Below are positions 1,921 to 49,793 of a DNA stretch of 64,000 nucleotides, piece by piece (the stretch's first letter is position 1; every line of letters begins with the position of its first letter). A program made the translations under genes and the position numbers. Source of the stretch: Haliotis rufescens. Its lineage: Eukaryota. Below the pieces are notes generated by a model. It worked only from the letters and a program-made list of their open reading frames with translations. It did no database searches and was not told the origin of the DNA. The stretch spans positions 26,164,001-26,228,000 of the forward strand of contig NW_025963868.1 of assembly GCF_023055435.1 (NCBI RefSeq), given 5' to 3'.

Positions 1921-1946
1921 AGGATTTAGCGAATTGCATGAATGCG

Positions 1947-6626: not shown

Positions 6627-7328
6627 TTAATGTGTTATTTTGGACACTGAACGTCCCTCAATAGAAATGCCACTTAAGCGTCGTCTATTCCTTAAAAAGA
6701 AATTTCTGATTGATCGCAACTTTTTAGAAAGCTGTGAGTGGGTCTTTTTTTCATCAGTCACAGAAACATGTTTATGACGTCGCTTCATAATCTCTTCCAG
6801 TACCTGTATGACACTAAGGTCCTTCTCAGCCGAGATCTCCACGTGTCCATGTTCCCATTCACAGCTAATGTTCAGATCTCGGGACATTCTCTCGGTCTTA
6901 TCTACAGAGCCAACGATGTCTGTCTTGTTGGCCACGAACACGTTTGGGACTGAAGGTCCCTCTTGCTGGAGGATCTGGTCCCTGGCTGCTACCACAGACT
7001 CAAAGGAGCCATCACACACCAGCGAGTACACCAACACGTATACATCAAAGGAGGGGAGTCCCTGCGGGAAGGTGCAGCTCTTCGTTGTGGATGTGTCCAC
7101 AATATCGACTGTCAGACTTCGCCCTTTGATTCCAAGATCAGCTGGAGCGTTACCACGTTTCTTACTTTTCTTGTGGGATTTGCTGCTCTGTTCTGTCCAG
7201 TGTTTGATGAGTCTGCAGATTAAGGTTAACTTTCCTTCACTGCTATCTCCAATTACAGCAAGGTTGAAGCTATCTTCCTCTTCTGAAATACTGCTGACCT
7301 CTGAGTGGAGAGTAAATCTGCGACTCAT
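6627..7328 (-). CDS. Atypical Ras-family small GTPase (RASD/DIRAS/Rap-like fold), copy 1, 233 aa from ATG
   Basis: G1 GDSSEGKLT, G3 DTSTT, DVYVLVYS, G4 NKTD, G5 ISAE; ATG in CAAAC-ATG context; single open exon. Confidence 0.8.
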   Translation of the reverse strand: MSRRFTLHSEVSSISEEEDSFNLAVIGDSSEGKLTLICRLIKHWTEQSSKSHKKSKKRGNAPADLGIKGRSLTVDIVDTSTTKSCTFPQGLPSFDVYVLVYSLVCDGSFESVVAARDQILQQEGPSVPNVFVANKTDIVGSVDKTERMSRDLNISCEWEHGHVEISAEKDLSVIQVLEEIMKRRHKHVSVTDEKKTHSQLSKKLRSIRNFFLRNRRRLSGISIEGRSVSKITH

Positions 7329-7381
7329 GTTTGATACAATGTTCTTGATACTCAATAGTGATGTGGTTTACAACTACACTA

Positions 7382-7528
7382 TGATGTGGTATACCAGTAT
7401 ACCTTTCTTTTATAGAGGTAATGTGTGTAAATTGAAATGGTAGACATAACTTGTTTCCATAACTCTATCAGAAAACTCTCAGCCCTTACCATGTATCTGT
7501 ATTGACTTGTACTGCACTGCACTCATTG
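7382..7528 (-). promoter_or_regulatory. Core promoter of the GTPase gene: Inr-like TCA (~7382), TATAAAAG (7407-7414), CCAAT (7524-7528)
   Basis: Canonical TATA-Inr spacing. TATA is conserved in all five copies (22859, 29001, 33978, 49872), although this conservation partly reflects duplication. Confidence 0.55.
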
Positions 7529-7650
7529 GCCAAGAAATGTGCAAATATCTGTTCCACGTTGCCATCCAGTGACACACGCTTCATCAGAGAACGTGTTTAA
7601 ACACCTTTTTTTAATATTTAACTATTTCGCGCCTTGCGTCTTGAAGCAGT

Positions 7651-7925
7651 CAGTGAGTTGGGTTTAATGCCGCTTTTAACAGTATTCCAGTTATATCACG
7701 GCGTATCAGCTTAGTGTGGGAGGAAAGCCCAAAGTGATGCAGGTCTCAGACGTTTACCACTTCGGTGAAACCCACGAGCACGGGTATGGTGCTGACAAAT
7801 CTAATAACATGATCGGGGCGAACCGGGCTTCGAACCAACAATCATAGGTTCCTGAATTACCCAAGGGTCGCAATTCCGCACAGCTAATCGCGGCGCCTTA
7901 GACGACTTGGCCACCTGTGTCCCCC
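7651..7925 (-). mobile_element. tRNA-derived SINE family 1, full length (duplicated at 23097-23371 and 29239-29513)
   Basis: Head GGGGGACACAGGTGGCCAAGTCGTCTAAGGCGCC (tRNA-Leu-like A box), GGTTCGAAGCCC B box, TSD TTGAAGCAGT. Confidence 0.85.
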
Positions 7926-8034
7926 TTGAAGCAGTGACAAAATAAATATTAATATATTTTACCACACCATAACTGAATATATTATAAGGTCGATCCCTTA
8001 ACGTGACTTTATTTACCCATAATTGTTTGAATTC

Positions 8035-9260
8035 AAAATATCTGAGGAAATATGACAATTATTACTCTTTTGGATACGCGAGGAAATATGACCTTATTAG
8101 ACTTTGGGATACCTGAGGAAATTTGATCTATATAGTAAGACTTTGGGATACCTTATAAAATGATATGGCCTGATGGTCTCCTCTCGTGTAGAGCATTACT
8201 AATCAACGAAATTAAAGTCACTCATCTTGCATTGTGAAGTTTGGGCCATTAGAAGACTTACTTTATTTTCCATTCAATCCCAACAATTGTTTAATCCAAT
8301 TTCTGGTGTTTCTTTCAGATGTTTATTTCTCACTATTGTTAAAAGTTGTGACTTTATGGAACTGATAGAATACACTTTCATTAGTACCATTCACACATGC
8401 TAACTGTGTCTGTCTATTCGTCCGTCCGTTTGTCTGTCTGTCTGTCCGTAATCATTTCCTTTATTTGGGCAGAAATCGAATAACTATTAAGTGTATCTGA
8501 TAGAAACTTGGAAAATCTATCATGGGATTTATCAAATTTTTTAATTTTTTTAATTTTTAGGGACAGAAGTTGGACATAGACTCCATTGGGGATGGGGTTC
8601 ATTTCCGGGGAAGAATTCGTAAGCCATTCAGTATATTTGATTGAAACTTGAAAGATGTATTAGTCATATGCTGAAGTGGTGTCTTTTGCTATTTTGTAAT
8701 ATTTAAAATATATATTTTTACAAATCCTTATGGAAAGAAGTTGGACAAGGACACGATTGCTAGTTTCACGGAAGCGACCATGGTGCATCTTTTGTGGGAA
8801 AAACATGTATGCTTCTTCAAGAACATTCAACTCTTGACCCAGAATTGCACATTTATTTCTGGTTACTTTACCGCCAGCTGCCGGAAATATCATCTTTCTG
8901 ATGAATCTTCGTTACGCGTTAAAAGGTGTGAATCAGAGTTGTGACACCTTAGAAAGCTGAGATATTGAGCTTTCCGCCACTAGTGCCCACGCTACTCTGG
9001 TCAAAGTTCGAATAGGGAGAGCAACGCGTTGCTCAATATGGTCATTGACCAGTATCAGACTTCAAGACATCTGAGGTAATAGGACAATTATGAGACTTTG
9101 GGATACGTAAGGAAATATCTCCAGTATCAGACTTAAGGATACTAGAGCCATTTTGATACCTGCGCCAATATGACCAGTATCATACTTTTGGATACCGAGG
9201 GCAATGTGATCGTTGTGATCGTTAACTGGTGAACTCATCCAGTGTAGGGTATTACCAATC
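8035..9260. repeat. Degenerate ~32-bp tandem repeats (AGACTTTGGGATACCTGAGGAAATATGACC) in two blocks, flanking a (CTGT/CCGT)n-headed repeat resembling Helentron-associated elements
   Basis: Blocks at 8035-8165 and 9050-9200; microsatellite at 8405-8450; recurs at ~23480-24700, ~29630, ~57150. Confidence 0.45.
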
Positions 9261-9329
9261 AACGAAAGATTAACCTAAGTTTCTATAGTTTCTCACCCCC
9301 AAAATTGCTAAGTTTTTCACACGAAGTCC

Positions 9330-10385
9330 TCGGTAGAGGATGGGATTCTGGAAGTTGAGGTACTGGTCCCTTTACGCAATACACCCCAGTACGTGACCCT
9401 TATGTTGCCTAGACGGTTGTTAGGATAGGGCCCGCCCTATCAATTGGCTGGTCATGCTATGGACACCTTACTCTTCTTGTTCTATCACTATTTGACTTGG
9501 AAGTGTATATGCAAAATGGAAATGTTTGATTATTCATGTTCATTTATTTTAACTCTACCTCTTAAATGGAAAAATTACCTAGATGTCAGTGCCAGAAGGC
9601 TGTGGCGCATAGGCCGATCTGGTTAAAAAGTTATCTTTTGACTTTTCTCAATGTGAATGTCATCCGGATATCCTTGGTAGTGCAAGTCCAAGATCAAGTT
9701 GTCATTGGCTTCGTCTTCATGACACTCCAGAAGAAGTTAAGAACATTAAACGCTTGCACACAAGGTCCCTATCACTTGAATATAATGGAAAACAACAAGC
9801 AACTAATCTGTTGGCAATAGATTTGTTGCAGTCCCTGTTCTGGTCTCTCCTCACAGAACACTGAACACCAGCAAAGGTATTGTAAGAGACTGGGATCGAT
9901 TGTTTGCTGATATTATTGATATTGTTCCTGAAATGAAAAATCAATGAGTGGCATATGCCAAACGATTCACAATGCGAAAAGACAAAGAGACTGCTCCTAT
10001 TGCACACAAATCAGTCAAACCAGGCTATGGCATTCATAAGGTTTGTATCTTCATTCCTAACCCTTTGAGGTGCTTCAAATGACAAAAGTATGGACATCAC
10101 GTGAATACTTGCACATTGGAGGAAAACACACGTAACGGAAGATTGCGACAGCATTTAAAAAAGGCATGAACTGCTGAGGTTATCACCCATCTTTCTCTAA
10201 AAGCTGTCCAATCTAGAAACAGCAAATGGAAATAAACAAAATACAACTCACAAACTTAGTTTTGTCGATGCCAACCTCAGAACCTAAAGAAACCTATGCT
10301 TCAATCACCAGAACGCCTTCTGAAACAACCACTAAAATTAAAAATTTGCCAGTTGCCACAGCATTAGTAAACTGTCACACGGACT
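9330..10385 (+). mobile_element. Degraded I/Nimb LINE 5' fragment (also ~24777-25865 and, more complete, ~57390-58990)
   Basis: 5'UTR blocks homologous to the other Nimb copies; IPNPLRCFKC and KRFTMRKD remnants with stops. Confidence 0.65.
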
Positions 10386-10720
10386 TATATAACATCATCC
10401 TTATATAACAGTTCTTTATATGCACATACTGGTTCTTGACGCGTCTAACTGTAATATTGCTGATGCGGCGTAAAGCAATATTTATTCTTTCACATATCCT
10501 GAAAACTATTATGGAGTAGTGAGTCACTTCTCTGAGTCAAGTGACACACTGAGACAGTTTGGAATAAAGCTGCAATCGAAACACCTAAGAGAGTGTGAAG
10601 CACGTATCATTACTTGGTGTGTTAAAATTAGGGAATGTGTGATAAATGTAAAGTGTAACTACCGGCTCATGCCTGTACGTCAGGACGCAACGCGAGTCTG
10701 TTTAGTTGATTAGTATTATA

Positions 10721-10896
10721 GTGAGTGAGTGAGTGAGTGAGTGAGTATGGTTTTACGCCACTTTTAGCAATATTCGAGCAATATCACAGCGGGGGACATC
10801 AGAAATGGGCTTCACACATTGTACCCATGTCGGGAATCGAGCCCGGGTCTTCGGCGTGACGAGCGAACGCTTTAACCACTAGGCTACCCAGCCCCA
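10721..10896 (-). mobile_element. tRNA-derived SINE family 2 (resembles molluscan RUDI/V-SINE type); also 17549-17710, 26203-26377, 31610-31780 (-) and 61680-61815 (+)
   Basis: GGGTAGCCTAGTGGTTAAAGCG A box, GGTTCGATTCCC-type B box, (ACTC)n tail; TSDs ATTAGTATTATA and GTTTCTG(A/G)TTATAG. Confidence 0.85.
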
Positions 10897-10919
10897 ATTA
10901 GTATTATAAGGGTAACGCT

Positions 10920-11016
10920 ATTTTTCAGGGCATCATCATTTGCAGAAGCCCGATGTCTTCCATTAACTCCCCGACAAAGACTGGCTTCTTCTGCAAATGA
11001 TAATGCCCTGAAAAAT
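10920..11016. repeat. 29-bp inverted repeat (hairpin) within an unassigned non-autonomous element; also ~26401-26497 and ~31804-31900
   Basis: ATTTTTCAGGGCATCATCATTTGCAGAAG ... CTTCTGCAAATGATAATGCCCTGAAAAAT (1 mismatch). Confidence 0.7.
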
Positions 11017-11560
11017 GGAATTTGTTATCAAATAAAAAGAAACAACAATATCGGTTTTAAAACATTTACTGCAATCAACACAAATATCACTGACCCACTT
11101 TTACAAATATGGAAACGTCAGAGAACAAACCAGATGACGACACTATTGAACGTGACGTCACCTATCCCCTATGATGTCACCTAAATGCTATTGCGTGCGT
11201 GCGTGCGTTCGTGATAACCCACCAGGGTACGTTATACTCCAGGCCGACAAGTTCTTGACTAATCCCCCTAAACCCGGAAGGGTAACAAGTAATTATAACA
11301 TATTTACATATATTTTGGTATACAGCGGTCAGGGAATTGAACTACTGACTATCCGCTGTCTGGGTAGATGTTCTATCAAATACACCACGGAGGTGGTTCA
11401 AAGTGTATAGCAAGTGACATGTGTAAGAAACTGTAGAATACCAGTCCATGTGACTTATCTATCCTTCTAACAGGGACGCGGTTGTCCAAGCTCCGAGAAA
11501 ATTATCAATATTGACTTGAAATTTTGAGTAATTGGGAGCAAGGAAGACATTGGTGGAAAG

Positions 11561-20690: not shown

Positions 20691-20702
20691 GTAGATCTTT
20701 TA

Positions 20703-22126: not shown

Positions 22127-22780
22127 TTAACGTCGTCTATTCCTTGAAAAGAAATTTCTGATTGATTGCAACTTTTTAGAAAGACGTGAGTGGGTCATTT
22201 TTTCATCAGTCACAGAAACATGTTTATGATGTCGCTTCATAATCTGTTCCAGTACCTGTATGACACTAAGGTCCTTCTCAGCCGAGATCTCCACGTGTCC
22301 ATGTTCCCATTCACAGTTAATGTTCAGATCTCGGGCCATTCTCTCGGTCTTATCTACAGAGCCAGCGATGTCTGTCTTGTTGGCCACAAACACTATAGGG
22401 ACTGAAGGTCCCTCTTGCTGGAGGATCTGGTCCCTGGCTGCTACCACAGACTCAAAGGAGTCATCACACACCAGCGAGTACACCAACACGTATACATCAA
22501 AGGAGGGGAGTCCTTGTGGGGAAGTGCAGCTCTTCGTTGTGGATGTGTCCACAATATCGACTGTCAGACTTCGCCCTTTGATTCCAAGATCAGCTCGAGC
22601 GTTACCACGTTTCTTACTTTTCTTGTGGGATTTGCTGCTCCGTTCTGTCCAGTGTTTGATGAGTCTGCAGATTAAGGTTAACTTTCCTACACTGCTATCT
22701 CCAATAACAGCAAGGTTGAAGCTATCTTCCTCTTCTAAAATACTGCTGGCCTCGGAGTGGAGAGTAAATCTGCGACTCAT
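22127..22780 (-). CDS. Atypical Ras-family GTPase copy 2, 217 aa
   Basis: G1 GDSSVGKLT, NKTD, ISAE; TAA after RNRRR. Confidence 0.8.
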   Translation of the reverse strand: MSRRFTLHSEASSILEEEDSFNLAVIGDSSVGKLTLICRLIKHWTERSSKSHKKSKKRGNARADLGIKGRSLTVDIVDTSTTKSCTSPQGLPSFDVYVLVYSLVCDDSFESVVAARDQILQQEGPSVPIVFVANKTDIAGSVDKTERMARDLNINCEWEHGHVEISAEKDLSVIQVLEQIMKRHHKHVSVTDEKMTHSRLSKKLQSIRNFFSRNRRR

Positions 22781-25700
22781 GTTTGATACAATGTTCTTGA
22801 TACTCAATAGTGATGTGGTTTACAACTACACTATGATGTGGTAACGCAGTATACCTTTCTTTTATAGAGGTAATGTGTGTAAATTGAAATAGTAGACATG
22901 TTCCATAACTGTATCAGAAAACTCTCAGCCCTTACCATGTATCTGTATTGACTTGTACTGCACTGCACTCATTGGCCAAGAAATGTGCGAACATCTGTTC
23001 CACGTTGCCACCCAGTAACACACGCTTCATCAGAGAACGTGTTTAAACACCTTTTTTTAATATTTAACTATTTCGCGCCTTGCATCTTGAAGGAGTCAGT
23101 GAGTTGGCTTTAATGCCACTTTTAACAGTATTCCAGTTATATCACGGCGTATCAGCTTAGCGTGGGAGGAAAGCCCAAAGTGATGCAGGTCTCAGACGTT
23201 TACCACTTCGGTGAAACCCACGAGCACGGGTATGGTGCTGACAAATCTAATAACATGATCGGGGTGAACCGGGCTTCGAACCAACAATCATAGGTTCCTG
23301 AATTACCCAAGGGTCGCAATTCTGCACAGCTAATCGCTTCGCCTTAGACGACTTGGCCACCTGTGTCCCCCTTGAAGCAGTGACAAAATAAATATTCATG
23401 TATTTTACCACACCATCACTGAATTTATTATAAGGTCGATCCCTTAACGTGACTTTATTTACCCATAATTGTTTGAATTCAAAATATCTGAGGAAATATG
23501 ACAATTATTACTCTTTTGGATACGCGAGGAAATATGACCTTATTAGACTTTGGGATACCTGAGGAAATTTGATCTATATAGTAAGACTTTGGGATACCTT
23601 ATAAAATGATATGGCCTGATGGTCTCCTCTCGTGTAGAGCATTACTAATCAACGAAATTAAAGTCACTCATCTTGCATTATGAAGTTTAGCCATGAGAAG
23701 ACTTACTTTATTTTCCATTCAATCCCAACAATTGTTTCATCCAATTTCTGGTGTTTCTTTCAGATGTTTATTTCTCACTATTGTTAAAAGTTGTGACTTT
23801 ATGGAACTGATAGAATACACTTTCATTAGTACCATTCACACATGCTAACTGTTTCTATAAGACGCCAGTCTGTCTGTTCGTCCGTCCGTCCGTCCGAAAT
23901 CATTTCCTTTACTGGGGCAGAAATCGAAAATTATTAAGTGTATTTGATAGAAACTTGGAAAATCTATCGTGGGATTTTTCGAATTTTAAAAAAATTAAAA
24001 AATTTAGGGACAGAAGTTGGACTTAGACTCCAATGGGGAAGGGGCTCGTTTCCGGGGCAGAATTCGTAAGCCATTCAGTATATTTGATCGAAACTTGAAA
24101 GATGTATCAGTCATATGATGAAGTGGTGCCTTTTGCTATTTTGTAATATTTAAAATATATATTTTTACAAATCTTTATGGAAAGAAGTTGGACAAGGACA
24201 CGATTGCTAGTTTGACGGAAGCGACCATTTTGCATCTTTTGTGGGAAAAACATGTATGCTTCTTTAAGAACATTCAGCTCTTGACCCAGAATTGCACATT
24301 TATTTCTGATTACTTTTCCGACAGCTGCCGGAAATATCATCTTTCTGATGAATCTTCGTTACGCGTTAAAAGGTGTGAATCAGAGTTTTGACACCTTAGA
24401 AAGCTGAGATAGTGAGCTTTCTGCCACTAGTGCCCACGCTACTCTGGTCAAAGTTCGAATAGGGAGAGCAACGCGTTGCTCAATATGGTCATTGACCAGT
24501 ATCAGACTTCAAGACATCTGAGGTAATAGGACAATTATGAGACTTTGGGATACGTGAGGAAATATCTCCAGTATCAGACTTAAGGATACTAGAGCCATTT
24601 TGATACCTGCGCCAATATGGCCACTATCGTACTTTTGGATACCGAGGGCAATGTGATCGTTACGATCGTTAACTGGTGAACTCATCCAGTGTAGGGTATT
24701 ACCAATCAACGAAAGATTAACCTAAGTTTCTATAGTTTCTCACCCCCAAAATTGCTAAGTTTTTCACACGAAGTCCTCGGTGGAGGATGGGATTCTGGTA
24801 GTTGAGGTACTGGTCCCTTTACGCAATACACCCTTGTACGTGACCCTTATGTTGCCTAGACGGTTGTTAGGATAGGCCCCGACCTATCAATTGGCTGGTC
24901 ATGCTATGGACACCTTACTCTTCTTGTTCTATCACTATTTGACTTGGAAGTGTATATGTAAAATGGAAATGTTTGATTATTCATGTTCATTTATTTTAAC
25001 TCTACTTCTTAAATGCAAAAATTACCTAAATGTCAGTGCCAGAAGGCTGTGGCGTATAGGCCGATCTGGTTAAAAAGTTATCTTTTGACTTTTCTCAATG
25101 TGAATGTCATCCGGATATTCTTGGTGCTGCAAGTCAAAGATCAAGTTGTCATTGGCTTCGTCTTCATGACACTCCAGGAGAAGTTAAGAACATTAAACGC
25201 TTGCACACAAGGTCCCTATCACTTGAATGTAATGGAAAACAACAAGCAACTAATCCGTTGGCAATAGATTTGTTGCAGTCCCTGTTCTGGTCTCTCCTCA
25301 CAGAACACTGAACACCAGCAAAGGTATTGTAAGAGACTGGGATCGATTGTTTGCTGATATTATTGATATTGCTTCTGAAATGAAAGATCAAGGAGTGGCA
25401 TATGCCAAACGATTCACAATGCGAAAAGACAACGAGACTGTTGAAACAAACACATACATCTTTTCGTTTTCTGCCCTTACTGCATAGAAATCAGTGAAAC
25501 CAGACTATTGCATTCATAAGGTTTGCATCTTCATTCCTAACCCTTTGAGGTGCTTCAAATGTCAAAAGTGTGGACATCACGTAAGTACTTGCACATTGGG
25601 AGAAAACACACGTAACGGAAGATTGCGACAGCATTTATAAAAAAAGGCATGAACTGCTGAGGTTTTCACCCATCTTTCTCTAAAAACTGTCCAATCTAGA

Positions 25701-28268: not shown

Positions 28269-28922
28269 TTAACGTCGTCTATTCCTTGAAAAGAAATTTC
28301 TGATTGATCGCAACTTTTTAGAAAGACGTGAGTGGGTCTTTTTTTCATCAGTCACAGAAACATGTTTATGATGTCGATTCATAATCTGTTCCAGTACCTG
28401 TAAGACACTAAGGTCCTTCTCAGCCGAGATCTCCACGTGTCCATGTTCCCATTCACAGCTAATGTTCAGATCTCGGGACATTCTCTCGGTCTTATCTACA
28501 GAGCCAGCGATGTCTGTCTTGTTGGCCACGAACACTATAGGGACTGAAGGTCCCTCTTGCTGGAGGATCTGGTCCCTGGCTGCTACCACAGACTCAAAGG
28601 AGTCATCACACACCAGCGAGTACACCAACACGTATACATCAATGGAGGGGAGTCCCTGTGGGAAGGTGCAGGTCTTCGTTGTGGATGTGTCCACAATATC
28701 GACTGTCAGATTTCGCCCTTTGATTCCAAGATCAACTCGAGCGTTACGTCGTTTCTTACTTTTCTTGTGGGATTTGCTGCTCTGTTCTGTCCAGTGTTTG
28801 ATGAGTCTGCAGATTAAGGTTGACTTTCCTACACTGCTATCTCCAATAACAGCAAGGTTGAAGCTATCTTCCTCTACTAAAATACTGCTGACCTCTGAGT
28901 GGAGAGTAAATCTGCGACTCAT
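28269..28922 (-). CDS. Atypical Ras-family GTPase copy 3, 217 aa
   Basis: Canonical P-loop GDSSVGKST, DTSTT, NKTD, ISAE. Confidence 0.8.
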   Translation of the reverse strand: MSRRFTLHSEVSSILVEEDSFNLAVIGDSSVGKSTLICRLIKHWTEQSSKSHKKSKKRRNARVDLGIKGRNLTVDIVDTSTTKTCTFPQGLPSIDVYVLVYSLVCDDSFESVVAARDQILQQEGPSVPIVFVANKTDIAGSVDKTERMSRDLNISCEWEHGHVEISAEKDLSVLQVLEQIMNRHHKHVSVTDEKKTHSRLSKKLRSIRNFFSRNRRR

Positions 28923-33245: not shown

Positions 33246-33899
33246 TTAACGTCGTCTATTCCTTGAAAAGAAATTTCTGATTGATCGCAACTTTTTAGAA
33301 AGACGTGAGTGCGTCTTTTTTTCATCAGTCACAGAAACATGTTTATGATGTCGGTTCATAATCTGTTCCAGTACCTGCAAGACACTAAGGTCCTTCTCAG
33401 CCGAGATCTCCACGTGTCCATGTTCCCATTCGCATTTAATGTTCAGATCTCGGGACATTCTCTCGGTCTTATCTACAGAGCCAGCGATGTCTGTCTTGTT
33501 GGCCACGAACACTATAGGGACTGAAGGTCCCTCTTGCTGGAGGATCTGGTCCCTGGCTGCTACCAAAGACTCAAAGGAGTCATCACACACCAGCGAGTAC
33601 ACCAACACGTATACATCAATGGAGGGGAGTCCCTGCGGGAAGGTGCAGGTTTTCGTTGTGGATGTGTCCACAATATCGACTGTCAGACTTCGCCCTTTGA
33701 TTCCAAGATCAGCTCGAGCGTTACCACGTTTCTTACTTTTCTTGTGGGATTTGCTGCTCTGTTCTGTCCAGTGTTTGATGAGTCTGCAGATCAAGGTTGA
33801 CTTTCCTACACTGCTATCTCCAATAACAGCAAGGTTGAAGCTATCTTCCTCTTCTGAAATACTGCTGACCTCTGAGTGGAGAGTAAATCTGCGACTCAT
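33246..33899 (-). CDS. Atypical Ras-family GTPase copy 4, 217 aa
   Basis: Canonical P-loop GDSSVGKST, DTSTT, NKTD, ISAE. Confidence 0.8.
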   Translation of the reverse strand: MSRRFTLHSEVSSISEEEDSFNLAVIGDSSVGKSTLICRLIKHWTEQSSKSHKKSKKRGNARADLGIKGRSLTVDIVDTSTTKTCTFPQGLPSIDVYVLVYSLVCDDSFESLVAARDQILQQEGPSVPIVFVANKTDIAGSVDKTERMSRDLNIKCEWEHGHVEISAEKDLSVLQVLEQIMNRHHKHVSVTDEKKTHSRLSKKLRSIRNFFSRNRRR

Positions 33900-35129
33900 G
33901 TTTGATACAATGTTCTTGATACTCAATAGTGATGTGGTTTACAACTACACTATGATGTGGTAACGCAGTATACCTTTCTTTTATAGAGGTAATGTGTGTA
34001 AATTGAAATAGTAGACATGTTCCATAACTGTATCAGAAAACTCTCAGCCCTTACCATGTATCTGTATTGACTTGTACTGCACTGCACTCATTGGCCAAGA
34101 AATGTGCTAACATCTGTTCCACGTTGCCACCCAGTGACACACGCTTCATCAGAGAACGTGTTTAAACACCTTTTTTTAATGTGTGATAAATGTAATGTGT
34201 AACTACCGGCTCCTTCTTGTACGTCAGGAGGCAACGCGAGTCTGTTTAGTCAGGGAATTGAACTAAAGACTATCTGCTGTCTGGGTAGATGTTCTATCAA
34301 ATATACCACAACGGTGGTTTAAAGTGTATATCAAGTGACATGTGTAAGAAACTGTAGAATACCAGTCCATGTGACTTCCCACTTCAAATAGCCGAAAGTT
34401 GCTCAAGGACTCGACCGTGGTAAACGGCACCTAACGTTTTACAAGTCTCCGGCAGGGCGTGACGGACACGAAACATTAGACTAAAACTCTGTCCTATTCC
34501 TTTCAGACAAGCCTTTTCCAGTGAGACTAACTGATGCACGAGATACTAGCACCGGTATTTTCGACTGCCTTTTCAGAACCCCATCGTATGGCAGGAGTAG
34601 TGCTGTGTGGCGTCAAACATCAAACACATACATTCCAATTAAAATGTTAGGACAATATACGTATCATTACTGGGTGTGTGAAACTGGGGAACGTGAGATA
34701 AATGTAATGTGTAACTACCAGTGTCCCGGTATAAACTCTCCCCCTACAAATTCTCCCCCCGGATATTTTATATCGGTACAGATGCTCCCCCGGGCGGATA
34801 TATTTCGCGTCCCCCCTCAGTATAAAGTCTCCCACCTGAGTATTCGGTTTGTTGCAGTGTCTTTAAGTACTATATTCTTTAAATAGTTATCTTTAATGTA
34901 AGGAGGGTTACTTTAAAAAATAGATTATGAAATATGGTCATGAAAAAATTTGAATGAAATGACTTAATGTAACATGTACGGTTACTGTTGTAACTGAATT
35001 CAGAAATGGCATTAATCCTCGCAAACATTCGGTTTTAACACTAACTACGTAAAAACTGTCAACGTATCCACGCGCGCCTCAAGCTCAGGCTGTCCGTTAT
35101 ACTCTGATTTAAGATCTAAAATATATTGC

Positions 35130-35507
35130 TTAGTACAGGCTACGATTTGAAAATGGTATCAGTGTAATATCAATGGCTAGAATATCATGGTGCAACCAGG
35201 TTTCTGTTAAACATACAACATCATAGCCATCTAATTCAGCACTGATTAAATCTACTTTGTCTTTAAGACTGCGTCCGTTTAGATGTATAATCTTTAAATC
35301 TGGACTACGCAAAGGTCCTGGATACGGATGGATATCACCGCAGAAGTGAAAAAGTAAACCTAAGAATGATAATCGGAAATTATATAAGCAAAGTAACCCA
35401 AAATATAGAGAAATGTGTATCATCTTCCCGAAATGATTAGCATGTAGAATAGATTCAAAAACACACACCGCCTGCCTGTATTGAACAACATCAACCGGCA
35501 TCGTCAA
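35130..35507 (-). pseudogene. CR1/L2-group LINE ORF2 5' fragment: leader, 2A-like CGDIHPYPGP, APE start
   Basis: LKIIHLNGRSL...YDVVCLTETWL APE motifs follow the 2A-like motif. Confidence 0.7.
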
Positions 35508-36438
35508 AGCAAAGTGTACATGTAATTGTTACAATCGGGCTGGCGGTGAATCTTAATGAAGAACACCTTGATAAAAAGACACACTGAAACTGATTTGCAT
35601 AACTGATGACCACAACATATTTCAAAATATAAAAATAGTAAAAATGATACAGTATAACCTCATACTGAAGAGAAAACAAGATCAACACAGAGAAGTAAAA
35701 TAGCACCTCATATAGAAATGAGATCTGAGAAGGGATTCATACGTTAAAAACTTAAAAAAGTATTATTATGAAAAACGAAAGGAAAAGTGGGGACCCTGCC
35801 CCCGACAATCCCACATCCGAAAAGAAAAAAACCCCTGCAAAATCAATAAAAAAATCAATAAATAAATAAAAAAACGACCCCCCCCCCCCCCCACACACAC
35901 ACACACACAAGTTACTAAATGTACATTTACATAAATATATAACCCAAAAAACTAAAGGAGCGAAAAAAAATAATAAAAAATGCATAAACAAATTAACATT
36001 AAAACCTAGAGGAATATGATAAGCCAATGTGTAATGCTACAGCACGAAACAATAAACTGTACCAACATTACAATGTTCCCCGATATGCATGCTTTACCTG
36101 GGTTACATACGGATGATCTAAGTTAGAAATATATGACTGATATAAATTCTTTAAACACGGTAATATCGAATATGCTTGGATTATCTTTTTTTTCAAATGT
36201 GCTCCATTCAAGAAAAGTTATATAGAATTATGTATTTAATCTCACCCATTTATTTTGTTCGTTTATGTAAAAGCTTTTACACCTTACACATTTTAATTAC
36301 AGATTCCTTTGTTTTGATTTTAATGCAAACAAACCAGGCTTTACAATGTATTTTATTTCAACAGATTTTTATACATAAATATATGAATGGGGATTGGCAA
36401 ACAAGCTTAACTGGCTTATGTAAAAGCCGCCGCCCTTT

Positions 36439-36869
36439 AGGCTGAGTTTCCATGTGCGCGGTTTGCCACGCGGTTTTGGGCACGTTTAGGGAGGCGGTTG
36501 AAATGCTATACAAAAACTATGCTTAAAAGTTCGGCGACTTAGTTTCCATAGTGCGCGGTTTGGCGCGGTTTCACCAACTGCAAACCGCTAGGGATAAGCG
36601 GTTGGTAAAACCGCGCAAATCGAAACAGTTCATTTATGATGTAGTATTTCCATTGGCGCGGTTGGGATCGCTCGGCTAAAAAAAAATCGAACAGTGCTCG
36701 ATTATCTTTAACCTCGTGGTTAGCCAAGCGGTTCTACCCGAGCCAATGGTAATTTTACAGAATAAGGCCTAATTTCCTTTGAAAAAAACATTGCATAGCG
36801 GTTTGAATTTATACAGAGTTTTGTATTACATTTCAACCGCCTCCCAAAACGGGCCCCAAACCGCGTGGC
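36439..36869. mobile_element. Non-autonomous TIR element, Harbinger-like left terminus
   Basis: ~54-bp imperfect inverted repeat 36465-36518/36817-36869; left end AGGCTGAGTTTCCAT; outer right end missing. Confidence 0.5.
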
Positions 36870-37320
36870 TGAATGAAAGTGTTTTTCACTCAAAATAAAC
36901 ACGTCAGAAAGATCTATTCTTAATTGAAATATGTGATTTAGGATTTTTAATATAGCTATTGTTTGCTTGTATTATTGAAAAGTAAGCTTATAAACGTAAT
37001 ATGAATTTATAGAATGTAGTAAAAAAAAATCATTTTCAAACGATCTATTCCAACATGTCCGTAGATGACTAACCGTCACTTCGTGAGGGTGTCATTGCTG
37101 GTGTCACCCTGAGAAAATGGGCCTGGCGTGTCACGCCAGTGTGTTTTCATGTAGGGAGGGTGGTTGTGGGCAACGGGCATGTCAAGTTGCTGCCCCTCAC
37201 ACATAATACGTGTACAAATCCCTAAAGAGTTAGAACAATTGCTATCATTTTGCTTGTATCGTTCGTCAACACATTGTCATACAGTTCTTCAGTGTTACCG
37301 AATCTTCATATTTTCTCGTG

Positions 37321-39978
37321 ATGGATGCCAGCGAAGTATCTCGCCTTGTAGACAACATCGCCTCTACTAAGTACCCAGAAGACTTCACCAAAGATCAAAA
37401 GAGACGTCTACGTGAGAAGGCCGCCTCTTTTACAGTTGCTGACAGAGTTCTCTACCATCTAGGCAATGGGGGGAAGAGGCAGAAGGTGTTCACAGTTGCT
37501 GACAGAGTTCTCTACCATCTAGGCAATTGGGGGGAAGAGGCAGAAGGTGTTCACAGTTGCTGACAGAGTTCTCTACCATCTAGGCAATGGGGAGAAGAAG
37601 CAGAAGGTGTTCACAGTTGCCGACAGAGTTCTCTACCATCTAGGCAATGGGGTGAAGAGGCAGAAGGTGTTCACAGTTGCTGACAGAGTTCTCTACCATC
37701 AAGGCAATGGGGGGAAGAGGCAGAAGGTGTTCACAGTTGCTGACAGAGTTCTCTACCATCTAGGCAATGGGGTGAAGAGGCAGAAGGTGTTCACAGTTGC
37801 CGACAGAGTTCTCTACCATCTAGGCAATGGGAGAAGAGGCAGAAGGTGTTCACAGTTGCTGACAGAGTTCTCTACCATCTAGGCAATGGGGGAAAGAGGC
37901 AGAAGGTGTTCACAGATGCTGACAGAGTTCTCTACCATCTAGGCAATGGGGTGAAGAGGCAGAAGGTGTTCACAGATGCTGACAGAGTCAGAGGCAGAAG
38001 GTCGTCGTTGGTGAAGATGAGAAGATGAAGATAATAGAGACTCTCCACAGCAGCATTGTCGGTGGTTGTCTCTTCGGTACTCGTGGCGCAGTATGAGTAA
38101 TGCCGTCCGTGAGTTCTGTAAGTGTTGCCCTGCTTGCCAGAAAGCGAACCCCAACAACAGACCCCAAGTGGCAAGCTTACACCCTGTCCCTGTTAAGGAC
38201 TTTTTCATCGATGGGGCTTGACCTTATTGGACCACTTAAAGAAACTGTAGATGGGTTCAGGTATATCATCGTTGCCACCGAGTACCTTTCCAGATGGGTG
38301 GAGGTTGCTGTACTTCCAGACAAGACAGCCATCAGCATTCATCAGTTTCTGATGCAGCTACTATACAGAAACGGGGTCAGGCAAGTACTCCTGCACGACC
38401 AGGGAAGGGAATTTTGCAATTTTCTTGTGAAGGTACTCTGTGACATTTTAGCTACTGACCAAGCCACGACGTCCCCGTATCAACCCCAGTCCAATGGTCT
38501 CACCGGAAGATTCAACCAGACCATGATCACCCAGCTGATGAAGATGTTAACAAGGACGGAGACGACTTGGACAAATTCCTTCAACCCGTTGCGTTTGCCT
38601 ACCGGACCAACATCCAGGCGTCTACCAAGACGTCTCCGTTTGAGCTCCTCTACGGCCAGAAAGCAAGACTTCCCATCGACCTTGAAGAAGCGAAGGATGA
38701 CCAAGCTATCTGGGATGTTGACGTCGAAGCCGTCGCTTACCGCATGAAGAAACTTGCTGACGTTATGCCCTCAAGCCGTGCAACAGCTAGAAACAACATC
38801 GAGAAGGCGCAGTCAAAACAGAAGAGGCGCTACGATCTTAAACACAGCTCGCCCGTTTTCCAGGTAGGATTTTTAAGCTCTATATCAAAATACTCATCTG
38901 TTTTAGTAACCCTTAGTAGCAGCTTAGGAGAAAGCATAGCGTGTGTAAAACTAATGATTACAAACTCTTAAATTAACATGTCAAAATATATAGAGGGAAG
39001 GATTACTGTTAAACAGTGATTGGGAAAGAATAGAAAGTAACAAAACAAGTATTGGACTGCGTTATTTTAGAATAATTACTTTCTTAAGAATAAAAATCAT
39101 TCTTGTTTAATGCAGATATATCCTTATGATATAAAGTTATTAGAAATCAGTGGTGCTGACAGTTTCTTTGTGTAACAGGTCGGGCAAAGAGTCACCATCA
39201 TCAACAGGAGACGAGACACATGTACAAGGATGGGAGACAAGCTCTCTCCCCGGTAATTCGGCCCATACGTCATTCACGAATCCCTTTGCAACGGCGAGAA
39301 AGTCCTCAAGTCACACTACAACGCCACTCACCTTAAGATATGGCATGATCCGCTCACCACAGATGCCCCTGCCGAAGGCGACATAGTCCCCGTTACGACT
39401 GATGACGCTGCTACAGACGTTACAGCTAAGGACTTAAACTTACGATTGTCAGACAGAGATAACATTGAGTCCGGGCAGTGGGTAAATGACCGAGTCATTG
39501 ACGCTGCATCTAAACTTGTGACATCCAGCACCGGGCTAGTGAACCAGTCGACTCTTCTCGCACAGACAGTTTTTTAGCCCATCCATCGCGATACCGTGCA
39601 GATCCTCCATGACAGAGACCACTGGGTGACGGTAAACAAGCAACCATCGTGGCGTGATGTATGCTGACATCACGAAGAGAGCTGTTGGCGACCTCATCAA
39701 TAAACAGTTGAAGCAGATCTTCCAAAATTAATGTGACAGTAGTGGTAACCTTACAGCTTCTTCCTTGCCAGTTGCAGACAAATGGTTCAGACTGTGGCAT
39801 CTTTGCCATTGCTAATGCAGTTGAACTTTCCCTAGGTAACAGCTTGCACTCCTGCAGATACGACATTGCAAAGATGAGACCCCACCAAGTGCAGTGCCTG
39901 ATCGAACACGACGTCCGTCCTTTTCCTAAGACTGTGACATGTGGACGCACGCCGAAGTCAAAGATCATCACGGTGTAG
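37321..39978 (+). pseudogene. GIN1/Ginger-like DDE integrase fused to a Ulp1-like cysteine protease, one GT-AG intron (38864-39178)
   Basis: GLDLIGPL, LHDQGREF, SPYQPQSNGLTGRFN (E to G), FAYRT...SPFELLYG, PVFQ|VGQRV, FGPY; then WVNDRVID, QILH..HWVTV, QTNGSDCGIFAIA. Confidence 0.8.
37429..37988 (+). repeat. 60-bp minisatellite, 9 full units + 1 partial, encoding FTVADRVLYHLGNGxKRQKV
   Basis: Direct reading; +1 nt in unit 2 and -1 nt in unit 7. Confidence 0.95.
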
Positions 39979-42318
39979 ATGTGTAACCGAAAGTTTTACT
40001 GTAAATACAAACCTAACACTGACATATTTAAACTAGAAATCATGTCCAATGAAAATGATGTATTGAAGCAATTGACCTTGAATTTGTTTTCCAAAATATT
40101 CTATCATGCTTATGAAAGTGCTATCCCTAAATACAGAGTTTGTTGTTTCTAATACAGTTTTTGTTGTCTGTGTACATTTTTTTAATATACCAGTTTGAGT
40201 CTACATGTGAACACAATCGATGGTTGAAATGTTAGTCTAAGAACAAAACATGAACTAATGGCCAACATTCCTCAGTTATGCCCCTTAACTACTTCGCCAA
40301 TAGATGGCGCCAAACGCTACGGTCCTGCGCGTACTTCCAGTATATTACGCGGTTCACAGATATTTGCACGACCAACAACTACAACGAAGTATTTACGATG
40401 CCTTCGACGTGCTGCTGTGTCCCGGGATGATGCAATCGAGGTGTTTTGTCGTTTCCGAGAGAACCCATGTTGCTGAAACAATGGTTGATTGGTATTCGGA
40501 GGAGCGACGAATCAAACCAAGGCAAGATGTGGAAACCGTCACATCACAGTGTTGTGTGTCATTCCCACTTCAGGCCGTCTGATTTCATTGCTGTAACTAG
40601 TTATGGTAAGACATTTGGGTAACTTGTTATGTTTCTATTCGTTGGCAGATTTAATTAACGTGCATGCCAATTATATTTGTTATATTTTTCTTGCATTGAA
40701 ATTACCAAGAGGGTTTTACGTGACTCAGAAATGTGTATCCAGTATGCAGAAATGTAAAGAAAGGACGCAGACAAAATAGAATATGTTCCGTCCCGTGGGA
40801 CACACTTATTTTCACAGATAGTTTGATTTTGTCATTGAGTTAAATTGAGTAAAGGTTCTTAAAACTTCGAAGTGTGTAATTTTTTTCACAATAATTTTAG
40901 TTCCCTCCTGTCAGAGTAGGCGAGTAAATTGGAGTATTGGCTAATTCTAATGTAATCATGTTTGTGTGTGTTTTGTTTGTGTGTTCAACACTAATGTCAC
41001 TGACCCACATTTACAAATATGGAACCGTCAGAGAACAAACCAGATGACGTCACTATTGAACGGTACGTCGCCTATCCCTACCTATGACGTCACCTAACAA
41101 CGGGCATGATAATGGCCCGTCGTCAAGCAATATGAGGGCATTATCAAGTTTATTTCTGATAACATGCGTCCGGTTTAATGATAATTCTATCAATTTTAGC
41201 TATAATACTGAGTCTGAAAACGATTATACAGCAGTCACGGAATTAAACTACTGACTATCCGCTGTCTAGGTAGATGTTCTATCAAATACACCACGGAGGC
41301 AGTTTAAGTTGTATAACAATGACATGTGTAAGAAACTGTAGAATACCAGTCCATGTGACTTATCTATCCTTCTAACAGGGACGAGGTTGTCCAAGCTCCG
41401 AGAAAATTATCAATATTGACTGGAAATTTTGAGCAATTGGGAGCAAGGAAGACATTGGTGGAAAGATGGGGGTCAGTATTGATGCCTGGAGACGACGGAT
41501 TGGCCGATTTACACCTCCCAAAGGAACAAGGCAAGTTTAAACTATACATACATACACGTCCCATTCTCAATTGACGCCATATACCGAGATGGGTTATAGA
41601 CTACTGTTGAGTATGTCCATCTGGTCTCTTGTGTGTATCTGTGACTCTGCTGCAGCAGTGTGGACCCCACAGGCTGTACCTATGTTGATACTCCCTTCAA
41701 ACTTGTGTACCCCAGATGAGATCTGTGTGATCTCTCCCGTGGGGACCAGTTTGGTTACATATCGAAAACATGAGACACTTGCCACTGCTAATGTATCCAT
41801 ACCGTTGCTTATAATCAGATCCGGCGATGTTGAGTTGAATCCTGGGCCTTTGACTACAAAACTTGATGAAATGAAGAACGTAATTTTAAAACAAATAAAA
41901 GAGTCAGAAGACAAAATTTACAATATAATAAAAGAATCAGAAAGTAACCTCTACACTGAAATCAAGTCAATGAAGGAGGACGTAAAATCTCTCAAGTCCG
42001 AACTCCGCGATTTAAGACATGAGGTATCAGATATCAATGGCCATTTAGATGTCCACAGACTTGACATTGATGCTGTTAGTTACAGATGTGATGAACTGGA
42101 CACCATGTACAAGGATTTAGACGCAGGAGGTGAGGATCAAGAACGCAGAAGCAGACGGAACAACATGATAATGTATGGTGTGAGTGAGTCGCCTAATGAA
42201 ACCTAATCTGAGTGTCAAAATAAAGTATTAGATATTCTTGATTAGGCTAGAGTCACAAAAGACATGGCTCCACTTGTTCCCAGGGATATAGAAATAGCCC
42301 ATAGCTAGAATATCTACG

Positions 42319-46763: not shown

Positions 46764-49091
46764 TTCAGCGTAATGAGTTAAGTAGACTTTGAACTGAAAT
46801 ACCAAATTTCAGATTTTACTATAAGGGAAACACATGAGTGCAAGAGGAGTGAGTGAGTTGGGTTTAACGCGGCTTTCAACAGTATTCAAGTTATAACACG
46901 GCATGTCAGCTTAATGTGGGAGGAAAGCCCGAAGTGATGCAGGTCTCAGACGTTTACCACTACGGGGAAACCCACGAGCACGGGTATGGTGCTGACAAAC
47001 CTAGAAACATAATTGAGGCGAACCGGGGTTCGAACCCACAATCATAGGTTTCTGGCGTGCCCAAGGGACGCAACCCTGCACAGCGAATCGCGGCGCCTTG
47101 CAAGAGGAGAAGGAGGAGGATAGAGCTGATAACTCAGCACCCAGTCAGCAGCGAGTGCCCTGGAAATCCTCCCGAGGTACCAGGAGACAACTGAGATCAC
47201 ACTCACGACCGGCTAGCTCCGGGAGTGGACAGACTGAATAGGGGTGTGGCCAGGGCAAAGGTGTGAATGGTGTCGAGGTAAATTTTACGACACTTCACAG
47301 TGACAGTGAAAGTAACCAGGACTGTGATGACACAGCCACTGTTAGTTTCATTTTTTGGAACGTTTCACGACTTGTATAGAGGTTAATGGACAATGACGTT
47401 ATTTCATGCCTACATCAGTATGATATAATTGGCCTCACAGAAACTTGGGTCACCGACCAGGATTGATCAGATATATTTACTGAATATGAATATGGGTATG
47501 TGTATAAAAGTGCAGACATATTAGCAGACCAAGAAAGACTCTCTGGTGGAATTACAATTTTGATTAAAAAGATCTTTTATAAGTATCTCGTCTCTATTAA
47601 GATAACATAAAATGCTATTTTCTTTGTATTTGACCAGTCTATGATTGATTTGGATCACAATTTCTTATATGCATGTGCTTACATCCATCCAGAAGGTTCC
47701 ACATGGTACACTAAGATGTCAGCAGATTGTAAAAATGGAATCGATATATTTCACGAGAATCTGTATAATATTTTAACATCTGAAAATGACATGTATATTC
47801 TCTGTGGTGGAGACTTTAATGCCCACACAGGAACAAAGGCTGACTTCATTGAAGATGTATTAGTTGAACAAACAGAAAAGCATTGCCAGTCGCGTTACGA
47901 CTTTATACTAGATTATTTTAAAGAAACACGCTACTCTGTGGATAAGAACATTAATGCCTTTGGTAGATCTTTACTAGATTAGTGTTCAATTTTCAACTTA
48001 CATCTCATGAACGGGAGATGTGGATCCGACTCAGGACGTGGAGATTACACATTTATTGGATCACAGAATTGTTAGTTAACAACCACGTCACCTACATGTA
48101 AATACGCATTGTACTGTAGGCCTGTGGCCTTTTAAGTACTGAATAAAACTGATTGACTTCACACTTCAAATAGCCGAAAGTGGCTCAAGGGTTCGACCGT
48201 GGTAAACGGCACCTAACGTTTTACAAGTCTCCGGCAAGGCGTGACGGACACGAAAGATTAGACTAAAACTCTGTCCTATTCCTTTTAGACAAGCCTTTTC
48301 CAGTGAGACTAACTGATGCACGAGATACTAGCACTGGTATTTTCGACTGCCTTTTCAGAACCCCATCGTATGGCAGGAGTAGTGCTGTGTGGCATCAAAC
48401 ATCAAACACATACATTCCAATTAAAATGTTAGGCCAAAATATACTCTCAGATAGCAGGTTGCATTTCAACCCTGATGGAACTCCGAAAAATATGAAAGAT
48501 ACTACAAGACGACGCGTGTGTTCATTTTTATTGTACTGATTTCAACTATTGACAAGGCCACTTACAAATATACCCTTTATAGCTTTCAGTGTAATGTACT
48601 ACGAACAGACACGCCTTTAGGCATAGTAAACACATTTTGAGGAAACATTTTGGACGTTATTCTCATGATGGGTGGTTCAAAGATAGGTACGTTGTCATAT
48701 GAGAAACATGTCATTAAACCAGTATCACTCATTTTAAAACTGGAATCATTTCCTGAAAGAACTTTTTTCATGTCATTGCAAGCAGTTATCTAGCCTTGTT
48801 GACATCAAGTGTCTGAGTGTTACTAGCCCACATCGACCATACAATTTGCACCAATACTCATGAACTCGTGACACGACAGTCCCTCTGGATTACACAGACT
48901 GAACATACTGGTCAGATTCTGTGATTTGACTTATAGCGTGTCATCGTACATAGTACCCTTCTTGAACAAATCAAACATCCTTTTAAAAAACAAATTCAGA
49001 TTTAAATATTCAATGATTTATTGGTATTATGTGACTATGAGTATGACATATTGTTAAAAGACATGGATATATATTATGCATACAATTTCAG

Positions 49092-49793
49092 TTAATGTGT
49101 TATTTTGGACACTGAATGTCCCTCAATAGAAATGCAACTTGAACGTCGTCTCTTCCTTAAAAACAAATTTCTGATTGATTGAAACTTTTTAGAAAGACGC
49201 GAGTGGGTCTTTTTTTCATCAGTCACAGAAACATGTTGATGATGTCGCTTCATAATCTCTACAAGTACCTGTATGACACTAAGGTCCTTCTCAGCCGAGA
49301 TCTCCACGTGTCCATGTTCCCATTCACAGCTAATGTTCAGATCTCGGGACATTCTCTCGGTCTTATCTACAGAGCCAGCGATGTCTGTCTTGTTGGCCAC
49401 GAACACTATAGGGACTGAAGGTCCCTCTTGCTGGAGGATCTGGTCCCTGGCTGCTACCACAGACTCAAAGGAGTCATCACACACCAGCGAGTACACCAAG
49501 ACGTATACATCAATGGAGGGGAGTCCCTGCGGGAAGGTGCAGCTCTTCGTTGTGGATGTGTCTACAATATCGACTGTCAGACTTCGCCCTTTGATTCCAA
49601 GATCAACTCGAGCGTTACCACGTTTCTTACTTTCGTTGTGGGATTTGCTGCTCCGTTCTGTCCAGTGTTTGATGAGTCTGCAGATTAAGGTTAACTTTCC
49701 TACACTGCTATCTCCAATAACAGCAAGGTTGAAGCTATCTTCCTCTTCTGAAATACTGCTGACCTCTGAGTGGAGAGTAAATCTGCGACTCAT
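49092..49793 (-). CDS. Atypical Ras-family GTPase copy 5, 233 aa
   Basis: G1 GDSSVGKLT, NKTD, ISAE; long C-terminus as in copy 1. Confidence 0.8.
   Translation of the reverse strand: MSRRFTLHSEVSSISEEEDSFNLAVIGDSSVGKLTLICRLIKHWTERSSKSHNESKKRGNARVDLGIKGRSLTVDIVDTSTTKSCTFPQGLPSIDVYVLVYSLVCDDSFESVVAARDQILQQEGPSVPIVFVANKTDIAGSVDKTERMSRDLNISCEWEHGHVEISAEKDLSVIQVLVEIMKRHHQHVSVTDEKKTHSRLSKKFQSIRNLFLRKRRRSSCISIEGHSVSKITH

What the first reader, a model, noticed from the sequence alone, without database searches (positions are those of the whole stretch)
6627..49793. Five-copy array of intact intronless Ras-like genes with pseudo-GTPase features
Seen: five very similar ORFs all remain open, while co-duplicated transposon ORFs are full of stops, frameshifts and deletions. 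Each keeps TATA/CCAAT/AATAAA. G4 (NKTD) is intact. The switch I/G2 region is replaced by a Ser/Lys-rich basic stretch (SSKSHKKSKKR, NLS-like), G3 DxxG is DTST, and G5 is SAE. There is no CAAX; instead a basic amphipathic tail (LSKKLRSIRNFF.RNRRR). The Mg2+-binding P-loop Ser is Leu in copies 1, 2 and 5 but retained in 3 and 4. Known: RGK and Rit/Rin GTPases use non-prenylated basic tails, and RGKs have degenerate G2/G3. Inference: a lineage-specific amplified family of switch-dead Ras-fold proteins, with nucleotide-binding and possibly nucleotide-free (S17N-like, GEF-trapping) variants.
Basis: partly seen in the sequence, partly recalled or inferred. Interest (0 to 1): 0.7.

Follow-up and report, generated by a model that had tools for sequence, protein, structure and literature searches.

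The report
Abalone switch-dead Ras gene array
These five intact, intron-free abalone genes belong to a family so far found only in abalones whose Ras-type proteins have lost the on/off switch motifs but kept the guanine-pocket motifs and a strongly conserved opposite face, so they likely work as fixed membrane-side docking proteins rather than as GTP switches.

Summary
Five open single-exon Ras-family ORFs carry the motifs described. They are part of a 9-copy array in this assembly and of a 22-member family in this genome (red abalone, by RefSeq labels). Relatives were found only in four Haliotis species. Selection is purifying but moderate: omega is 0.51 in the array and 0.33 family-wide, and no stop occurs where about 5 are expected. 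The family nests among invertebrate Ras-dva-like GTPases, not Rap or DIRAS, and fails the RGK signature. Conservation is inverted against those parents: switch I 0.30 vs 0.71 identity, helix alpha4 0.73 vs 0.46. The P-loop Ser is replaced in 15 of 22 members (Leu, Arg, His, Lys), DxxG is absent in all, and NKxD is kept in 21. The best reading is a switch-dead pseudoGTPase family that likely still holds guanine nucleotide and docks through the alpha4 face. The GEF-trap idea is unlikely, because the GEF-binding switches are the least conserved part; Leu copies look more like drifting duplicates. Expression and biochemistry are untested. The scan's notes held no earlier finding on this DNA.

The parts
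6627..7328 (-). Copy 1 (GKL; also V31E, I129N, D107G; stop lost, +16 aa). Likely the most decayed copy
22127..22780 (-). Copy 2 (GKL, 217 aa; F87S)
28269..28922 (-). Copy 3 (GKS, 217 aa)
33246..33899 (-). Copy 4 (GKS, 217 aa); reference copy, AlphaFold model pLDDT 81, Ras fold
49092..49793 (-). Copy 5 (GKL; E178V, Q179E, K186Q; stop lost, +16 aa)
7408..7531 (-). TATA (7408-7414) and GGCCAAT (7525-7531) upstream of copy 1; AATAAA at 6552-6557
22860..22977 (-). TATA and GGCCAAT upstream of copy 2; AATAAA at 22005-22010
29002..29119 (-). TATA and GGCCAAT upstream of copy 3; AATAAA at 28146-28151
33979..34096 (-). TATA and GGCCAAT upstream of copy 4; AATAAA at 33123-33128. Same boxes at like positions in the paralogue at C90:2.19 Mb (73% over 204 bp)
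49873..49990 (-). TATA and GGCCAAT upstream of copy 5; AATAAA at 49017-49022
5600..11456 (.). Duplicated unit around copy 1, 94% identical to 21052-26961 (copy 2); shorter shared blocks around copies 3-5
28093..42077 (.). Block repeated 54 kb upstream of its place (outside the window) at 97-99% identity; the upstream copy carries array members u3/u4

Best explanation
The five ORFs are recent tandem copies of an abalone gene family, likely derived from an invertebrate Ras-dva-like GTPase, whose proteins lack the switch motifs but keep the guanine-pocket motifs and are predicted to act as switch-independent docking proteins at membranes. Shown: the Ras fold is predicted with a confident core and low-confidence switches; G2-Thr and G3-Gly are gone; the Mg-site Ser and Asp are lost together in several lineages; P-loop Gly-Lys, a Trp near the guanine-stacking position, NKxD and SA are kept; purifying selection is strongest on G4-alpha4-G5. 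Inferred: the protein still holds a guanine nucleotide (most likely GDP, with little need for Mg) but no longer changes shape on GTP; the basic amphipathic tail replaces the lost prenyl anchor; the conserved alpha4/beta6 face binds a partner. The array grows by tandem and segmental duplication with sequence exchange between copies and loses members by birth and death; Leu copies are mostly tolerated, drifting variants.
For: Selection: array omega 0.51, 2dlnL 7.4 against omega=1. There are 27 synonymous and 44 replacement alleles, binomial p=0.010; 4.9 stops are expected if neutral and 0 are seen, P=0.008 before counting frameshifts. Eight paralogues give omega 0.33 overall, 0.13 for residues 127-170 and 0.48 for 44-94. 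Mean identity in 14 family vs 14 Ras-dva-like proteins: switch I 0.30/0.71, switch II 0.42/0.67, alpha4 0.73/0.46, beta5-G4 0.91/0.74. Of 22 members in this genome, the P-loop residue is Ser 7, Leu 4, Arg 7, His 3, Lys 1; the G3 Asp is lost in all 11 with Arg/His/Lys; DxxG is found in 0, NKxD in 21, CAAX in 0. G27, G32, K33, W44, N134, K135, D137, S166 and A167 are invariant in 18 aligned proteins. Model pLDDT is 81, above 90 in the core and 46-54 in the switches; best matches are Ras-family G domains, Z 16.6, rmsd 2.5 A over 146 residues. Tree: family 100/100, inside a Ras-dva-like clade 93/92. Members occur in four Haliotis species, and H. cracherodii has 7 array-type models, 1 of them GKL. 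Promoter boxes are positionally kept across paralogues.
Against: No binding, hydrolysis, localisation or partner was measured; every functional step is inference. Omega of about 0.5 in the array and in the switch and tail regions is weak constraint. Sequence exchange between copies (99 of 351 informative site pairs incompatible) weakens tree-based tests. Gly-Lys and NKxD can be kept for folding alone. One member (C600) has deleted NKxD, and four broken fragments exist. All array copies differ from family-conserved residues, two of them in alpha4 (V148M, Y149S or A; also R90G, Y187H), so the array may have drifted from the family function. The family set spans one genus and the parent set spans protostomes, so only the pattern across regions is comparable. 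The tail is poorly conserved (0.32) and absent in the C1 lineage. AU tests did not reject grouping with RASD (p=0.094) or RASL10 (p=0.25).
Confidence: 0.55

Rival explanations
1. The family is functional, but this array is mostly redundant young duplicates under relaxed selection, drifting toward pseudogenes; only a few copies matter.
For: Array omega 0.51 vs 0.33 family-wide. Leu copies give 0.50 and Ser copies 0.33 (difference not tested, counts small). Copy 1 has V31E and I129N; two stops were lost independently. The array sits among retroelement fragments, and truncated or stop-containing family fragments exist elsewhere.
Against: 0 of 9 copies has a premature stop or frameshift. Both subsets separately show a synonymous excess (p=0.007 and 0.014). 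The branch leading to the array has 21 synonymous vs 19 replacement changes, omega about 0.3. A second species keeps a 7-model array.
Confidence: 0.22
2. They are atypical but still cycling GTPases with slow hydrolysis, working like RGK proteins (class iii pseudoGTPases).
For: Ser copies keep GKS and the G3 Asp. RGKs also combine a poorly conserved G2, altered G3, conserved G4/G5 and a polybasic tail (PMC4081519 passages) and are listed as retaining activity (PMC5593906 passages).
Against: The Mg-site Ser is replaced in 15 of 22 members by four different residues, and the G3 Asp is lost in 11; that is hard to fit with a cycle that matters.
Confidence: 0.12
3. One reading: Leu copies are nucleotide-free, S17N-like dominant negatives that trap the GEF of a canonical relative.
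For: Leu at the P-loop Ser position in 4 of 9 copies here and 1 of 7 H. cracherodii models. Many canonical-looking paralogues exist that could be targets.
Against: GEFs grip switch I/II (recalled; the paper on the S17N structure was not held), and these regions are the least conserved and unlike the parents. The one paper read describes KRAS S17N as GDP-preferring, not nucleotide-free (PMC13104123 passages). Leu copies are mosaic rather than a clean lineage and carry the damaging-looking changes.
Confidence: 0.07
4. The copies are assembly artefacts or haplotypes placed in tandem.
For: A block of about 14 kb is repeated 54 kb upstream at 97-99% identity, and upstream copies u2 and u3 differ at 8 of 3651 bases and not at all in the CDS. 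This could inflate the count of 9.
Against: The five window copies differ by 2.5-4% in the CDS and have different retroelement insertions between them. A second species has 7 models.
Confidence: 0.04

Closest known systems
Ras-dva small GTPases of vertebrates and their invertebrate relatives (PMC6115384)
   Same: Nearest outgroup in the profile search and in the tree. Shared FP-x-x-(R/K)-L after G3 and a longer alpha4 ending in E-W-x-x-G (by-eye match to the axolotl G domains printed in the supplement). The abalone parent-type gene at C201 is also a single open frame.
   Different: The parent type keeps GKS, the G2 Thr, DTxG, an SPAVRRRR motif and a CAAX-type end; the family has none of the last four. 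Ras-dva is induced in wound epithelium (abstract); nothing is known here. No vertebrate Ras-dva was in my tree.
RGK proteins (Rad, Gem, Rem) (PMC4081519)
   Same: Poorly conserved G2, altered G3, conserved G4/G5, no CAAX, polybasic tail; thought to depart from the GDP/GTP switch.
   Different: No C-7 cysteine motif, no DXWE, no long N-terminus; separate origin, so the likeness is convergent.
PseudoGTPases: class ii Rnd; class i p190RhoGAP pG1/pG2, CENP-M, AAGAB psGD (PMC5593906, PMC12490416)
   Same: G-domain fold with degraded G motifs; AAGAB binds partners on a face other than the switches.
   Different: Class i proteins lose all G motifs, whereas this family keeps the guanine-pocket motifs. 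Rnd keeps the Mg site and stays GTP-bound (the Mg point is recalled). This family is stand-alone, multi-copy and genus-restricted.
RASD1/Rhes and DIRAS
   Same: Same broad Ras branch with FPAM after G3; DIRAS2 and Rheb are the best PDB sequence hits. RefSeq names such as 'rhb1-like' reflect this.
   Different: Abalone has separate genes of these kinds: a two-exon RASD and a DIRAS with CAAX. Grouping with DIRAS is rejected (p=0.03); grouping with RASD is not (p=0.094).

Membership tests
Ras superfamily G domain | Pfam Ras above cut-off and G-domain fold | tested here: met
   5 of 5 above 21.6 bits; Z 16.6, rmsd 2.5 A, 146 aligned
Canonical Ras switch | GxxxxGK[ST], G2 Thr, DxxG | tested here: not met
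   GK[ST] in 7 of 22, DxxG in 0 of 22, no G2 match
Canonical Ras switch | NKxD and SA of G5 | tested here: met
   NKxD 21 of 22; SA 22 of 22, followed by E or R, not K
RGK | C-7 motif with invariant Cys in the last residues | tested here: not met
   definition in PMC4081519; tails
RGK | G3 DXWE (vertebrate signature) | tested here: not met
   DTST/DTSS/EASS/KASS/HTAV; the paper notes this motif is weak in protostomes
RGK | Phylogenetic grouping with RGK | not tested
   no RGK sequence was among the fetched rows; Gem G domain is one of many tied fold matches
Ras-dva-like clade (descent) | Nests among invertebrate Ras-dva-like proteins | tested here: inconclusive
   nested at 93/92, unstarred, long branch; Rap p=0.002 and DIRAS p=0.03 rejected, RASD p=0.094 and RASL10 p=0.25 not; no vertebrate Ras-dva row
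Ras-dva-like clade (intact member) | G2 Thr, DTxG, SPAVRRRR tail, CAAX | tested here: not met
PseudoGTPase class ii | Binds guanine nucleotide but does not hydrolyse | not testable with these tools
   motif pattern fits; needs biochemistry
PseudoGTPase class i | All G motifs degraded, no nucleotide binding | tested here: not met
   sequence part only: G1 Gly-Lys, G4 and G5 are conserved under strong selection
Rit/Rin | Intact G2/G3 switch with non-prenylated basic tail (recalled definition) | tested here: not met
   switch motifs absent

The most novel reading that the evidence does not exclude
Abalones built a new class of small G protein: a Ras-dva-derived module that holds guanine nucleotide without magnesium (a basic residue replacing the P-loop Ser in some lineages), has moved its working surface from the switches to the alpha4 face, and is the far end of a radiation of about 60 single-exon Ras-like genes caught at successive stages of switch loss, giving a natural series for how a GTPase becomes a pseudoGTPase.
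Probability: 0.3. Interest if true: 0.7.

Novelty: new variant of a known kind. Interest (0 to 1): 0.45.

Why it matters
Known pseudoGTPases are few and are mostly single, old domains. Here one genome holds 22 stand-alone members with graded loss of the Mg site, plus dozens of less degenerate relatives. This makes the path from switch to scaffold, and which residues suffice for nucleotide binding, directly testable with natural variants. It also shows that current labels ('rhb1-like', 'RASL10B') and probably the spliced 3' ends of the RefSeq models are misleading.

Tried and rejected
Expression: no RNA holder was listed for copy 4. Four runs guessed to be RNA gave only short, low-depth contigs on copy 4, one adapter-bounded and reaching 250 bases upstream of the ATG, past the TATA box. 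On the C1 paralogue only one of four runs gave a 263-base piece. Homodimer with GDP: no verdict, score 0.28 against a mark of 0.32. First AlphaFold model (18 rows, pLDDT 66) was replaced by a 99-row model. A 70-row careful tree did not finish (15 of 85 rows dropped as near-copies or multi-domain); the 33 hand-picked rows used LG+G4, which is prone to long-branch pull. Retrogene origin is not needed, as the parent-type gene is already one open frame. NLS as a family feature was rejected. Literature: searches for Haliotis with small GTPase expansion (2 papers), with rhb1/Rhes/Rheb names (17 listed), mollusc pseudoGTPase expansion (15 of 56 listed), H. rufescens with Ras and tandem duplication (3 papers) and abalone transcriptomes with these names showed no description of this family in titles and abstract starts; 'ras' in PMC9022041 was an author name. 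Subscription papers and most supplements, such as abalone expression tables, were not seen and may bear on expression. Vertebrate Ras-dva and RGK were not in the trees. The scan's notes held nothing on this sequence; notes on dead GTPases in archaea and bacteria concern other DNA and did not move the reading.
Full report
Observation. The window holds five single-exon ORFs on the minus strand at the stated places, each above the Pfam Ras cut-off. TATA, CCAAT and AATAAA are present in 5 of 5. Two additions: copies 1 and 5 lost the stop codon by different changes and run 16 residues further, and four more copies lie before the window, so the assembly has nine copies in about 85 kb. The spaces between copies hold fragments of LINE-type, tyrosine-recombinase and integrase-bearing retroelements. 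Duplicated pairs of these differ by 1-bp indels.

Family and range. A six-frame search of the genome scored 94 candidates and gave 64 matches. Twenty-two are near-full-length members at 47-100% identity: the array, two genes at 1.13 and 2.19 Mb, a second cluster of eight at 25.36-25.51 Mb of the same contig, two on C600 and one on C1. Four broken fragments were also seen. A word-based protein search gave 11 hits, all labelled Haliotis (rufescens, cracherodii, rubra, asinina). A profile search of 1.84 billion representatives gave three clusters at E below 1e-30, all Haliotis; the next best, at 1.7e-27, is a canonical GTPase that also appears among the relatives of the abalone gene at C201. H. 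cracherodii has seven array-type models, six GKS and one GKL, so the array and the Leu variant are not peculiar to this assembly. The count of nine may be inflated: a block of about 14 kb is repeated 54 kb upstream at 97-99% identity.

Selection. In the nine copies omega is 0.51 under a codon model, with 2dlnL 7.4 against neutrality. Counting distinct alleles gives 27 synonymous and 44 replacement changes (p=0.010). At that synonymous rate 4.9 stop codons are expected and none is seen (P=0.008); adding frameshifts at indel rates from a third of the flank rate up to the full rate gives 6e-4 to 5e-6. Copies exchange sequence (99 of 351 informative site pairs fail the four-gamete test), so these tests are approximate. 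Across eight paralogues omega is 0.33: 0.13 in G4-alpha4-G5, 0.30 in beta4-alpha3, 0.33 in G1-alpha1, 0.48 in the switch region and 0.52 in alpha5 and tail, each below 1. Promoter boxes are kept at like positions in paralogues whose synonymous sites have diverged by 0.3 or more.

Origin. In a 33-row tree the family is one clade (100/100) inside a group (93/92) of protostome proteins of the C201 type, together with five other abalone single-exon arrays (97/90). I call this group Ras-dva-like. Its motifs match by eye the axolotl Ras-dva G domains printed in the supplement of PMC6115384, and that paper says the nearest homologues of Ras-dva are invertebrate small GTPases (section 5). No vertebrate Ras-dva was in the tree. 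Grouping with Rap (p=0.002) or DIRAS (p=0.03) is rejected; with RASD (0.094) or RASL10 (0.25) it is not. Abalone has its own two-exon RASD and its own DIRAS. The RGK C-7 signature (PMC4081519, passages) is absent.

What changed. Against 14 parent-type proteins, conservation in 14 family proteins is inverted: switch I 0.30 vs 0.71, switch II 0.42 vs 0.67, alpha4 0.73 vs 0.46, beta5-G4 0.91 vs 0.74. The sets differ in depth, so only the pattern counts. Invariant residues are the P-loop Gly-Gly-Lys, Trp44 (one residue from the guanine-stacking Phe of Ras by count from the P-loop; the role is recalled and the match inferred), NKxD and SA, plus a block in alpha4-beta6. The elements that bind Mg and sense the gamma-phosphate are lost: the P-loop residue is Ser in 7, Leu in 4, Arg in 7, His in 3 and Lys in 1 of 22; the G3 Asp is lost in all 11 with a basic residue there; none has DxxG. 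The model has a confident core and low confidence at residues 52-61 and in the 81-90 block, with alpha1 extended to residue 49, and matches Ras-family domains.

Mechanism. The partition of kept and lost residues points to a protein that likely still holds a guanine nucleotide but cannot switch: class ii in the scheme of PMC5593906 (passages). It likely acts through the conserved alpha4/beta6 face, as AAGAB uses a non-switch face (PMC12490416, introduction and passages), with the basic amphipathic tail standing in for the lost prenyl anchor. All of this is inferred; no partner is known. The GEF-trap reading needs a switch surface that a GEF recognises (recalled), and that is the least conserved part. 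The Leu copies also carry the unusual changes (V31E and I129N in copy 1, F87S in copy 2, both stop losses), which fits tolerated drift better. Against my reading, the whole array differs from family-conserved residues, two of them in alpha4, so it may have changed or loosened its role.

Annotation. All six H. rufescens and seven H. cracherodii array models seen leave the ORF at a GT in codon 176 and end in unrelated short tails. Paralogues of H. rubra and H. asinina read on through a conserved alpha5, which the model predicts with pLDDT 90-94. The unspliced ORF is therefore the likelier product; real splicing is not excluded.

Verdict. PseudoGTPases and tandem gene arrays are known kinds. An amplified, genus-restricted, stand-alone family with graded Mg-site loss and a shifted conserved face is a new variant. 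Interest 0.45, held down by untested expression and biochemistry.

Noticed in passing
G000 C8:0.58-0.76 Mb, C13:6.5 and 41.55-41.63 Mb, C594, C357, C445, C57, C113, C35, C583, C1, C556 (loci L024-L084): 37 further single-exon Ras-like loci were tabulated; only 2 of 37 end in CAAX, and G2/G3/G4 range from intact to fully degenerate. Five of six arrays tested fall in the same clade as the family.
   Followed up: partly
L078 and L079 (C594:3.51 and 4.58 Mb): Even more degenerate G domains: GKR, no DxxG, G4 read as HRVD/YRVD, G5 lost; candidates for class i pseudoGTPases.
   Followed up: no
Proteins P0157, P0158, P0183, P0192 (unnamed records): A separate clade of CAAX-less Ras-dva-like proteins with partly lost G2/G3, weakly placed as sister to the family (84/78); may be a parallel or older degeneration.
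   Followed up: partly
Copies 1-5, residues 2-7: N-terminal R-x-x-[ST]-hydrophobic motif (SRRFTL), kept in several paralogues; resembles a basophilic kinase site (recalled) and is modelled as a beta strand.
   Followed up: no
window 34159-34170 and matching places in the other copies: A 12-base perfect palindrome lies at the 5' edge of the block shared by all copies; a truncated copy at C90:25.196 Mb starts at the same edge and holds only the first 70 codons.
   Followed up: no
window 265-2981 and 52042-53814: Two tyrosine-recombinase (DIRS/Ngaro-type, label recalled) retroelement remnants: RT at 642-1418, recombinase at 52412-53302.
   Followed up: no
window 37432-37988: 60-bp minisatellite, 9.3 copies at 95% match, just before an integrase-core fragment at 38100-38747.
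   Followed up: no
window 4692-4943, 7648-7924, 16167-16418, 20702-20978, 23091-23370, 29233-29512, 46845-47099, 63032-63206: A dispersed repeat of about 250-280 bp at 84-95% identity, probably a SINE-type element.
   Followed up: no
L022 (C600:194557-195126): Family member with an in-frame four-residue deletion that removes NKxD, otherwise open.
   Followed up: no
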